NCBI RefSeq assembly: GCF_003019035.1
Contig: NZ_CP027447.1
Strand: one strand, 5' to 3'
Source: Escherichia coli
GTDB taxonomy: Bacteria > Pseudomonadota > Gammaproteobacteria > Enterobacterales > Enterobacteriaceae
Length of the DNA: 64,000 bases
Each line of letters begins with the position of its first letter. The first letter of the stretch is position 1. Positions 10,193 through 10,452 of the stretch are shown one piece after another. The translations under genes were made by a program, and so were the position numbers. The notes under the pieces were generated by a model. That model did no database searches. It was not told the origin of the DNA and was given only the letters and a program-made list of their open reading frames with translations.

Positions 10193-10452
10193 AAAAACTC
10201 CATTGATATAATATATCCTTTACCATGAATCATCACTTAAAATAATAAGTGTGCTTTGATTCACAGGCATAGTACACCAATGAGATAGTTTTATCTAAAA
10301 ATAATATTAATTACTCAATCTTAAATATAAATTTATTATTTAAATATTATTAAAACAGCAAGAAATCAAGTTTATTATCAGACATTATCAATAATTCAGA
10401 ATATATTTATATCAATGGGTATATGAATAATGGAATTATTGATATCACTTAT

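What the first reader, a model, noticed from the sequence alone, without database searches (positions are those of the whole stretch)
10193..10452. Extremely AT-rich fimbrial promoter region with an 11-bp perfect inverted repeat
The 260 bp upstream of the pilin gene are dominated by A/T tracts (ataatattaattactcaatcttaaatataaatttattatttaaatattattaaaa), typical of nucleoid-protein-silenced fimbrial promoters. Within it, atcaataattc (10387..10397) and gaattattgat (10433..10443) form an 11-bp perfect inverted repeat around a 35-bp AT-rich spacer. This could be a regulator binding site or a recombination/cruciform element, but it is much smaller than a fim-type invertible switch.
Basis: seen in the sequence. 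Interest (0 to 1): 0.35.

Follow-up and report, generated by a model that had tools for sequence, protein, structure and literature searches.

The report
Chance palindrome upstream of lpf fimbrial operon
The inverted repeat is really there, in the very AT-rich DNA between glmS and the known long polar fimbria (lpf-O113/Stg-type) operon of E. coli. It is missing from most other strains that carry the same operon, so it is most likely a chance, lineage-specific feature and not a switch or regulator site.

Summary
The repeat is perfect and is 12 bp long, not 11 (10386-10397 / 10433-10444, 35-bp spacer). It lies in the most AT-rich 260 bp of the window (GC 21% against 51%).

The region is the 307-bp gap between the glmS stop and terminator (10456-10483) and lpfA-O113. 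lpfA-O113 is the first gene of a known four-gene chaperone-usher operon lying between glmS and pstS.

Shuffles give a local chance of about 0.014-0.036 for such a repeat, which is unusual but not compelling.

Comparison with other genomes decides the matter:
- About 1959 of 5426 complete E. coli genomes carry this intergenic region.
- Only 386 have the window-like version, and only 159 are identical across the repeat.
- A close variant has an uncompensated T>G change in one arm.
- The majority B1-type has three substitutions in the left arm and a 7-bp deletion reaching into the right arm (5/12 pairs).
- A Pseudocitrobacter orthologue also lacks the repeat (7/12 pairs).
- The repeat segment is the least conserved block of the region.

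No genome shows an inverted spacer. There is no recombinase gene, Fur box, GATC site or Rfam family, and folding is no better than shuffled sequence.

Verdict: a known locus and an ordinary AT-rich fimbrial upstream region. The repeat is most likely fortuitous.

The parts
10386..10397 (.). Left arm of the perfect 12-bp inverted repeat (TATCAATAATTC)
   Evidence: It varies among orthologous loci: TAGCAATAATTC in TUM20902 and strain 4621, and TAATGATAATTC in the B1-type.
10398..10432 (-). 35-bp AT-rich spacer. On the minus strand it contains a weak sigma-70-like match (-35 TTCATA 10427-10422, 16 bp, -10 TATATT 10405-10400) pointing towards lpfA.
   Evidence: 9 of 12 consensus matches; a consensus match only. 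This match is not called at the homologous place in the B1-type or in Pseudocitrobacter. The spacer is 71% identical between the window and the B1-type.
10433..10444 (.). Right arm of the inverted repeat (GAATTATTGATA), 4 nt beyond the U-run of the glmS terminator
   Evidence: In the B1-type a 7-bp deletion removes its first 3 bases and one further base differs.
10193..10452 (-). AT-rich upstream (regulatory) region of lpfA-O113. It is the most AT-rich 260 bp of the window.
   Evidence: GC 21%. Lowest of all 260-bp windows. Promoter-like matches are enriched, 7 against 2.3 +/- 1.5 in shuffles.
10456..10483 (-). Rho-independent terminator of glmS: a GC-rich hairpin followed by U7 at 10455-10449
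   Evidence: -25.9 kcal/mol, z = -4.6, 0 of 200 shuffles as stable, repeat I7. The hairpin is shared with the B1-type and, in diverged form, with O157 lpf2. It differs from the terminator of lpf-less strains.
9620..10192 (-). lpfA-O113, the major subunit of the long polar fimbria (Stg-type chaperone-usher operon)
   Evidence: The identical RefSeq locus is annotated lpfA-O113. NCBIfam NF011817 matches full length at 390 bits against a cutoff of 203.
5213..9572 (-). Rest of the operon: chaperone lpfB (8841-9572), usher lpfC (6294-8816), LpfD/StgD-like fimbrial protein (5213-6283)
10500..12329 (-). glmS. Its stop codon marks the edge of the DNA shared with strains that lack the operon.
   Evidence: TIGR01135, 898 bits; homology with lpf-less genomes begins at window 10498.
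10200..10211 (.). Left arm of a second perfect 12-bp inverted repeat (CCATTGATATAA). It overlaps the lpfA ribosome-binding site. Its partner lies at 10407-10418.
   Evidence: repeat I4. This arm is invariant because it lies in the conserved leader. The partner is not conserved: 8/12 in the B1-type and 5/12 in Pseudocitrobacter. No inverted variant occurs in 1940 genomes.
10407..10418 (.). Right arm of the second 12-bp inverted repeat (TTATATCAATGG), inside the spacer of the first repeat
10193..10280 (-). The part of the upstream region that is actually conserved. It comprises the 48 bp before the ATG, the small palindrome CACTTA-N6-TAAGTG (10234-10251) and TTGGTGTACTAT (10280-10269).
   Evidence: Positions 10193-10240 are 98% identical between lineages. 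The palindrome arms are invariant in the E. coli D/F-type and B1-type and in Pseudocitrobacter, while its spacer varies.

Best explanation
The region is the 307-bp gap between glmS and the lpfABCD-O113 (Stg-type) long polar fimbria operon. This is a known, horizontally distributed chaperone-usher operon that sits between glmS and pstS in about a third of E. coli genomes.

Read in the direction of transcription (minus strand), the gap contains, in order:
1. the glmS stop codon;
2. a strong intrinsic terminator;
3. about 250 bp of 79% A+T DNA that must carry the lpf promoter(s) and leader.

The 12-bp inverted repeat lies in the distal, fastest-evolving part of that AT-rich DNA. It is most likely a fortuitous feature of one lineage, the phylogroup D/F-type variant of the operon. 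Low-complexity A/T sequence readily produces reverse-complementary 10-13-mers, and here point changes and a 7-bp indel happen to give a perfect match.

The repeat is not an invertible switch, a mobile-element end, a structured RNA or a conserved operator.

Shown here: the anatomy, the base composition, the lack of conservation and the lack of inversion. Inferred: the AT-rich tract works like other fimbrial upstream regions, as a weakly constrained platform for sigma-70 promoter(s) and probably for H-NS-type silencing. The constrained signals lie in the ~90 bp next to lpfA, not at the repeat.
For: Locus identity:
- The RefSeq annotation of a locus 100% identical over window 10100-10560 gives pstS, a fimbrial protein, lpfC-O113, lpfB-O113, lpfA-O113, glmS.
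- NCBIfam matches agree.
- PMC6033998 describes this four-gene operon between glmS and pstS. It reports a B1 type and a version in phylogroups D and F that is 89% identical, matching the 89% seen.

Terminator.

Base composition.

Lack of conservation:
- 1959 genomes carry the intergenic region.
- Only 386 match the 96 bp around the repeat, and 159 of these match exactly.
- TUM20902 and strain 4621 have an uncompensated T>G change in the left arm, leaving 11/12 pairs.
- The B1-type loci have three substitutions in the left arm and a 7-bp deletion in the right arm, leaving 5/12 pairs.
- The Pseudocitrobacter vendiensis orthologue, which is also downstream of glmS, has 7/12.
- Between the window and the B1-type, the 59-bp repeat unit is 71% identical. 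The other blocks of the gap are 84-98% identical, and the flanking genes differ at about 10-13% of third codon positions.

Other variants have unrelated perfect inverted repeats at non-homologous places: 10 bp in the B1-type and 13 bp upstream of O157 lpf2.

No inversion variants were found.

The unit occurs at a single place per genome.

Folding is no better than shuffles: z = -0.97 as RNA and -1.55 as DNA.

There is no Rfam hit above any gathering score.
Against: - Locally the repeat is rarer than chance alone predicts, at 1.4-3.6% of shuffles. A second perfect 12-bp repeat shares the ATTGATA core, with a joint chance of about 1.2%.
- The two arms neatly bracket a promoter-like -35/-10 pair. 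This is the geometry of an operator pair.
- The repeat is stable in at least 159 genomes of one lineage, but those genomes are closely related, so this says little.
- No transcription start, protein-binding or expression data exist for this lineage, so a lineage-specific function cannot be excluded.
Confidence: 0.8

Rival explanations
1. The two arms are a lineage-specific operator pair. A dimeric or looping regulator would bind both arms, one just upstream of the -35 and one over the start site. It would clamp the promoter-like element in the 35-bp spacer and give the D/F-type operon its own on/off control.
For: The arms flank the TTCATA-16-TATATT match on the lpfA strand. The repeat is perfect and locally unusual. 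The ATTGATA core occurs four times in the 260 bp.
Against: - Neither arm is conserved in the TUM20902-type, the B1-type or Pseudocitrobacter, and changes are not compensated.
- The promoter-like match is itself not recovered in the other lineages.
- A 7-mer occurring four times is ordinary for this composition; about half of shuffles reach it.
- There is no Fur-box match. The best is 12/19, no better than shuffles and not at the repeat.
- There is no full IHF consensus and no GATC site.
- No regulator gene is present in the island.
Confidence: 0.08
2. The repeat, or the second one 195 bp apart, marks a small invertible or otherwise recombining DNA segment. This would be a miniature fim-type phase switch flipped by a recombinase encoded elsewhere.
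For: Perfect 12-bp inverted repeats lie upstream of a fimbrial major-subunit gene. The 10200-10211/10407-10418 pair encloses 195 bp of the putative promoter region, which is comparable in concept to fimS. The fimS comparison rests on established knowledge and was not tested here.
Against: - Queries carrying the inverted 35-bp spacer or the inverted 195-bp segment found no genome with that arrangement among 5426 complete E. coli genomes. Every match was in the native orientation.
- There is no recombinase gene between pstS and glmS.
- The arms are not conserved in other lineages.
- A 35-bp spacer is very short for synapsis of a site-specific inversion (general knowledge).
Confidence: 0.02
3. 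The repeat acts as a nucleic-acid structure. It could be a hairpin in glmS read-through or lpf leader RNA, or a cruciform in supercoiled AT-rich DNA, that affects termination, mRNA stability or promoter opening.
For: The arms pair in the minimum-free-energy folds of both RNA and DNA. The unit starts 4 nt after the glmS terminator U-run.
Against: - The folding energies are indistinguishable from shuffles: z = -0.97 with 37 of 200 shuffles as good, and z = -1.55 with 15 of 200.
- The stem is an all-A/U-rich 12-mer with a 35-nt loop.
- There is no covariation; changes break pairs.
- No Rfam family matches.
- The strong terminator upstream should stop most read-through.
Confidence: 0.03
4. The repeat is a scar of the element that brought the operon in: terminal inverted repeats of a MITE-like unit, or an end of the island.
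For: It lies at the glmS-proximal edge of strain-variable DNA, next to the region where Tn7-type elements insert (established knowledge). A similar word, GAATTATTAATT, lies near the pstS side at 5076-5087.
Against: - The 96-bp query occurs at exactly one place per genome and only at this locus.
- The 12-mer has no other copy, allowing up to 1 mismatch, in the window.
- The real boundary of shared DNA is at the glmS stop codon, 55 bp away on the far side of the terminator.
- The pstS-side word has 2 mismatches and lies in diverged pstS upstream DNA, not at a clean junction.
Confidence: 0.02

Closest known systems
lpf-O113 / 'lpfB1' / Stg-type long polar fimbria operon of E. coli, between glmS and pstS (Doughty et al. 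2002 and Ideses et al. 2005, as cited in PMC6033998)
   Same: Same locus, gene order and proteins. RefSeq annotates an identical sequence as lpfA/B/C-O113. The operon has four genes: major subunit, chaperone, usher and an LpfD/StgD-like protein. The 89% identity to the B1 type matches the phylogroup D/F variant reported in PMC6033998.
   Different: Nothing of substance differs. The window carries the D/F-type allele, whose upstream region differs from the commoner B1 type by about 15% and by a 7-bp indel. That difference is what creates the perfect repeat.
lpf2 (O-island 154) of E. coli O157:H7
   Same: It sits in the same chromosomal slot downstream of glmS. It has a related glmS terminator hairpin, a related leader next to the ATG, and a shared TTGGT(A)GTACTAT motif. 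Its upstream region is also AT-rich, and it is reported to respond to bile, iron and Fur (PMC4288034, PMC5357955).
   Different: Its intergenic region is about 700 bp and otherwise unrelated. It has no counterpart of the 12-bp repeat and carries a different 13-bp perfect repeat elsewhere. No Fur-box match better than chance was found in the window.
lpf1 (O-island 141) regulatory region of O157:H7, silenced by H-NS and de-repressed by Ler
   Same: It is an AT-rich upstream region of a long polar fimbria operon.
   Different: It is a different locus and a different sequence. H-NS or Ler binding has not been shown for the operon in this window, and it could not be tested here.
fimS invertible promoter element of type 1 fimbriae
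   Same: Short inverted repeats lie upstream of a fimbrial major-subunit gene and enclose promoter-like DNA.
   Different: fimS is 314 bp flanked by 9-bp repeats and has dedicated recombinases next to it (established knowledge). Here there is no recombinase gene, no orientation variant in 5426 genomes and no conservation of the repeats.

Membership tests
lpf-O113 / Stg-type chaperone-usher fimbrial operon | Four genes in the order major subunit, chaperone, usher, LpfD/StgD-like protein | tested here: met
   ORFs at 9620-10192, 8841-9572, 6294-8816 and 5213-6283, all on the minus strand. NCBIfam NF011817 and NF011818 score above their cutoffs; the usher and the StgD-like protein are best hits below cutoff. 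The RefSeq names come from an identical locus.
lpf-O113 / Stg-type chaperone-usher fimbrial operon | Location between glmS and pstS | tested here: met
   PMC6033998 states the same locus.
fim-type invertible promoter switch | Both orientations of the segment between the inverted repeats occur in populations or assemblies | tested here: not met
   Synthetic inverted-spacer queries found only native-orientation matches. The best full-length identity for the 35-bp unit was 91.8%. For the 195-bp unit, 0 of 1940 genomes reached 80% coverage.
fim-type invertible promoter switch | A site-specific recombinase gene linked to the switch | tested here: not met
   Only the four fimbrial genes lie between pstS and glmS. 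A recombinase acting in trans cannot be excluded.
fim-type invertible promoter switch | Inverted repeats conserved in orthologous loci | tested here: not met
   12/12 in the window, 11/12 in TUM20902, 5/12 in the B1-type and 7/12 in Pseudocitrobacter.
Transcription-factor operator palindrome (Fur box tested as the named candidate) | Match to the 19-bp Fur consensus GATAATGATAATCATTATC better than composition predicts | tested here: not met
   The best match is 12/19, at 10297-10315 and not at the repeat. Of 500 shuffles, 453 reach at least 12. The consensus was taken from memory.
Transcription-factor operator palindrome (Fur box tested as the named candidate) | Both half-sites conserved, or co-varying, among orthologous promoters | tested here: not met
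   The repeat unit is the least conserved block of the gap (71%).
Pap-type Dam/Lrp phase-variable fimbrial promoter | Paired GATC sites in the upstream region | tested here: not met
   There is no GATC anywhere in 10193-10499.
H-NS-silenced, horizontally acquired fimbrial promoter region | Markedly AT-rich relative to the genome, and strain-variable presence | tested here: met
   GC 21% against 51%. The locus is present in 1959 of 5426 genomes and absent at the same site in others.
H-NS-silenced, horizontally acquired fimbrial promoter region | H-NS binding and de-repression in an hns mutant | not testable with these tools
   No ChIP or expression data for this operon type were found in the paper library. 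Such data exist only for lpf1 of O157:H7.
MITE or other small mobile repeat | Multiple copies per genome or copies at other loci | tested here: not met
   One place per genome, always at this locus. There is no other copy in the window.
Structured RNA family (Rfam) | Match reaching a family's gathering score | tested here: not met
   The best match is MicX at 23.8 bits against a gathering score of 75.

The most novel reading that the evidence does not exclude
In the phylogroup D/F-type lineage only, the two arms could have become a working operator pair, or a looping site, that brackets a promoter in the 35-bp spacer. This allele of the long polar fimbria operon would then have a regulatory input that the B1-type allele lacks. 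That would be a recent, lineage-specific rewiring of a fimbrial promoter by a few point changes and a 7-bp indel.
Probability: 0.06. Interest if true: 0.3.

Novelty: already known. Interest (0 to 1): 0.1.

Why it matters
It matters little. The operon is a known adhesin locus of pathogenic and commensal E. coli, and its upstream region looks like other AT-rich fimbrial control regions.

The useful results are negative. The eye-catching palindrome should not be annotated as a switch or operator. Anyone mapping lpf-O113 regulation should look first at the conserved ~90 bp next to lpfA. These comprise the leader, the small CACTTA-N6-TAAGTG palindrome and the TTGGTGTACTAT motif.

If the repeat did turn out to be functional in the D/F-type allele, it would be a small example of lineage-specific promoter rewiring.

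Tried and rejected
- **Invertible switch.** Megablast with synthetic inverted versions of the 35-bp and the 195-bp segments against 5426 complete E. coli genomes found no inverted variant.
- **Fur box, IHF consensus, Dam GATC sites.** None was better than chance or present at all. The consensus sequences were taken from memory.
- **Structured RNA or cruciform.** Folding z-scores were -0.97 and -1.55, and Rfam gave nothing above threshold.
- **Mobile-element end or MITE.** The unit is single-copy and the real island edge is at the glmS stop. The similar word near pstS (5076-5087) has two mismatches and is not at a junction.
- **Repeated-motif hypothesis (ATTGATA, four copies).** This count is ordinary for the composition.
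- **Promoter placement by consensus scan.** The match inside the spacer is not recovered in the B1-type or in Pseudocitrobacter, so the true promoter remains unknown.
- **Literature.** No promoter, transcription-start or H-NS data for lpf-O113/Stg were found. The lpf1 and lpf2 regulation papers (PMC3067649, PMC4139445) are not held.
- **Species-representative genome scan.** A scan with a 21-mer from the conserved leader returned one true orthologue (Pseudocitrobacter vendiensis). The other two hits were an E. coli-like contig binned in a Collinsella MAG and a chance hit in an AT-rich Pelagibacteraceae genome.

Full report
**1. What is in the sequence**

The repeat is one base longer on each side than reported: TATCAATAATTC at 10386-10397 and GAATTATTGATA at 10433-10444. 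It is a perfect 12-bp inverted repeat around a 35-bp spacer.

The 260 bp from 10193 to 10452 have 21% G+C. This is the most AT-rich stretch of that length in the whole window, whose mean is 51% and whose next lowest value is 29.6%.

**2. Is it more than chance?**

I ran 3000 dinucleotide-preserving shuffles of the 260 bp:

| Perfect inverted repeat | Any spacing | Spacer of 60 bp or less |
|---|---|---|
| at least 12 bp | 3.6% | 1.4% |
| at least 11 bp | 9.6% | 3.6% |

- Two 12-bp pairs in one shuffle occur in 1.2%.
- Across the whole 64-kb window there are only three perfect repeats of at least 12 bp with a spacer of 60 bp or less. The other two are GC-rich with short spacers (4 and 15 bp).
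- The shared ATTGATA core occurs four times in the region, but about half of the shuffles contain some 7-mer at least four times.

The repeat is therefore locally unusual at about the 1-4% level. That is suggestive but not strong for a feature picked by eye from 64 kb.

**3. What the locus is**

A complete E. coli genome (FDAARGOS_497) is 100% identical over 10100-10560. Around this segment it is annotated pstC, pstS, fimbrial protein, lpfC-O113, lpfB-O113, lpfA-O113, glmS, glmU, atpC and so on. NCBIfam agrees:
- The 190-aa protein (9620-10192, minus strand) is a chaperone-usher major subunit, at 390 bits against a cutoff of 203.
- It is followed by a chaperone, an usher and an LpfD/StgD-like protein.
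- The 609-aa protein (10500-12329, minus strand) is GlmS.

PMC6033998 describes exactly this four-gene operon between glmS and pstS, calling it 'lpfB1' and tracing it to the O113:H21 and O78 operons. It notes a version in phylogroups D and F that is 89% identical. The window shows the same 89% to the B1-type loci, so it carries the D/F-type allele.

Strains without the operon share sequence with the window only from 10498 onwards, that is from the glmS stop codon.

**4. Anatomy of the gap, read on the minus strand**

| Feature | Coordinates | Note |
|---|---|---|
| glmS stop | 10502-10500 | |
| GC-rich hairpin | 10483-10456 | a good intrinsic terminator: -25.9 kcal/mol, z = -4.6, no shuffle as stable |
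| U7 run | 10455-10449 | |
| Repeat arm | 10444-10433 | |
| Spacer | 10432-10398 | |
| Repeat arm | 10397-10386 | |
| AT-rich DNA | 193 nt | |
| lpfA ATG | 10192 | |

The consensus scan finds seven sigma-70-like matches in 10000-10600, against 2.3 +/- 1.5 in shuffles. One of them (TTCATA-16-TATATT, 10427-10400, minus strand) lies wholly inside the spacer. These are pattern matches only.

**5. Comparison with orthologous loci: the decisive evidence**

Of 5426 complete E. coli genomes, 1959 contain at least 80% of the 461-bp query spanning the gap. A 96-bp query centred on the repeat matches only 386 of them: 159 exactly and 227 with one to four differences. The rest are of the B1-type, represented in the spread listing by hits at 89.2-89.7% identity.

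Alignments and column-wise pair counts give:

| Locus | Complementary pairs in the repeat | Change |
|---|---|---|
| Window | 12/12 | |
| TUM20902 and strain 4621 (96% identical overall) | 11/12 | T>G in the left arm, no compensating change in the right arm |
| Three B1-type loci (JNE131328, O111 RM9322, 88_1577) and an E. coli-like contig in a Collinsella MAG | 5/12 | three substitutions in the left arm, a 7-bp deletion reaching into the right arm, one further change |
| Pseudocitrobacter vendiensis orthologue (also immediately downstream of glmS) | 7/12 | no recognisable repeat |

Between the window and the B1-type, the 59-bp repeat unit is 71% identical. It is the least conserved block of the gap. 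By comparison, 10193-10240 is 98% identical, the remaining blocks are 84-88%, and the flanking lpfA and glmS segments differ at about 10-13% of third codon positions.

The second repeat behaves the same way, at 8/12 and 5/12.

Other alleles carry different perfect repeats at non-homologous places: 10 bp in the B1-type and 13 bp upstream of O157 lpf2. This is what chance in A/T-rich DNA predicts.

**6. Specific mechanisms tested**

- *Inversion.* Queries in which the 35-bp spacer or the 195-bp segment was reverse-complemented found no genome with that arrangement. The best full-length identity was 91.8%, which is the native sequence aligned through mismatches. For the longer construct, 0 of 1940 genomes reached 80% coverage. 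No recombinase gene lies in the island.
- *Mobile repeat.* The unit occurs at one place per genome, always here, and there is no other copy in the window.
- *Structure.* RNA and DNA folds use the arms but are no more stable than shuffles, with z = -0.97 and -1.55. Rfam gives nothing near a gathering score.
- *Named regulators.* The best match to the Fur consensus is 12/19, elsewhere in the region, and most shuffles do as well. There is no full IHF consensus and no GATC. The consensus sequences were recalled from memory, so these are weak tests.

**7. Most likely explanation**

The gap is the glmS terminator plus a weakly constrained, extremely AT-rich upstream region of a horizontally distributed fimbrial operon. 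The repeat is a fortuitous, lineage-specific coincidence in the fastest-evolving part of that region. I put about 0.8 on this.

Silencing of the AT-rich tract by H-NS is a reasonable inference from three things:
- the base composition;
- lpf1 of O157:H7, which is controlled by H-NS and Ler;
- the general behaviour of chaperone-usher operons (statements and citations in PMC4288034, PMC5357955 and PMC6033998).

No data for this operon type were found, and the inference could not be tested here.

The constrained parts of the region, and therefore the better candidates for real signals, are:
- the 48 bp before the ATG;
- a small palindrome, CACTTA-N6-TAAGTG (10234-10251), whose arms are invariant from E. 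coli to Pseudocitrobacter while its spacer varies;
- TTGGTGTACTAT (10280-10269, minus strand), which is also recognisable upstream of O157 lpf2.

Their function is unknown, and I did not pursue them beyond alignment.

**8. Rivals**

- A lineage-specific operator pair around a promoter in the spacer remains possible, at about 0.06-0.08. It is suggested by the geometry, has no comparative support, and the promoter-like match is not recovered in other alleles.
- An invertible element, a structural element and a mobile-element scar each get 0.02-0.03, for the reasons given above.

**9. Novelty and score**

The locus is known, and the AT-rich upstream region is ordinary for its class. Interest is 0.1.

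**Limits**

- Counts rest on megablast bands and on a handful of fetched representatives of each allele class, not on every genome.
- No transcription-start, binding or expression data were available.
- The papers on lpf1 and lpf2 regulation were not held.

Noticed in passing
window 10200-10211 and 10407-10418: A second perfect 12-bp inverted repeat (CCATTGATATAA / TTATATCAATGG) lies 195 bp apart. Its left arm overlaps the lpfA Shine-Dalgarno sequence, and it encloses most of the AT-rich region. It is not conserved (8/12 in the B1-type, 5/12 in Pseudocitrobacter), and no inverted variant occurs in 1940 genomes.
   Followed up: yes
window 10234-10251 (minus-strand leader of lpfA): A small palindrome, CACTTA-N6-TAAGTG, lies 42-59 nt upstream of the lpfA ATG. 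Its arms are invariant in the E. coli D/F-type and B1-type alleles and in Pseudocitrobacter vendiensis, while the 6-nt spacer varies (AAATAA / TATTAA / AATTAA). It is a better candidate for a real operator or 5'-leader hairpin than the reported repeat.
   Followed up: partly
window 10269-10280 (minus strand TTGGTGTACTAT): This motif is conserved in all lpf-O113 alleles and in Pseudocitrobacter (as TTGGTGTAGTAT), and is recognisable upstream of O157:H7 lpf2 (TTGGTAGTACTAT). TACTAT resembles a -10 hexamer, so this may be the core promoter, but it scores below the scan threshold.
   Followed up: partly
window 10449-10502; compare L003 1470-1505: Strains with the lpf island have a different glmS terminator from lpf-less strains. 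Homology between them ends 3 nt after the glmS stop codon. The island therefore supplies its own terminator and replaces the sequence where Tn7 normally inserts downstream of glmS. O157 lpf2 shares a diverged version of the same hairpin.
   Followed up: partly
window 5070-5150 (pstS upstream side of the island): On the pstS side the junction is not clean. The Pho-box region is shared up to about 5070. Then about 40 bp differ from lpf-less strains, and then a diverged stretch (GAAAAAG...TAG...TTTGTCA) is again alignable. The word GAATTATTAATT at 5076-5087 resembles the repeat arm (10/12), but this is probably coincidence.
   Followed up: partly
L010 (Pseudocitrobacter vendiensis NZ_CALSBS010000003.1) 1739-5236: An orthologous lpfA/lpfB-type operon sits immediately downstream of glmS in another genus. 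It has its own terminator and a 316-bp AT-rich gap, so the glmS-adjacent position of this fimbrial operon is not confined to Escherichia.
   Followed up: partly
L011 (Collinsella sp. MAG contig JAIJJM010000969.1) and L009 (Pelagibacteraceae SAG): A 1-kb contig binned as Collinsella matches the E. coli B1-type lpfA-glmS gap closely over the ~330 bp aligned and is almost certainly mis-binned E. coli DNA. The Pelagibacteraceae hit is a chance 21-mer match in an AT-rich genome.
   Followed up: yes
L002 886-898 and 1059-1071 (O157:H7 lpf2 upstream region): A perfect 13-bp inverted repeat (TATCCATTTATTA / TAATAAATGGATA), 160 bp apart, lies in the unrelated ~700-bp AT-rich region upstream of lpfA2. 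This is another example of long perfect repeats arising in such DNA.
   Followed up: no
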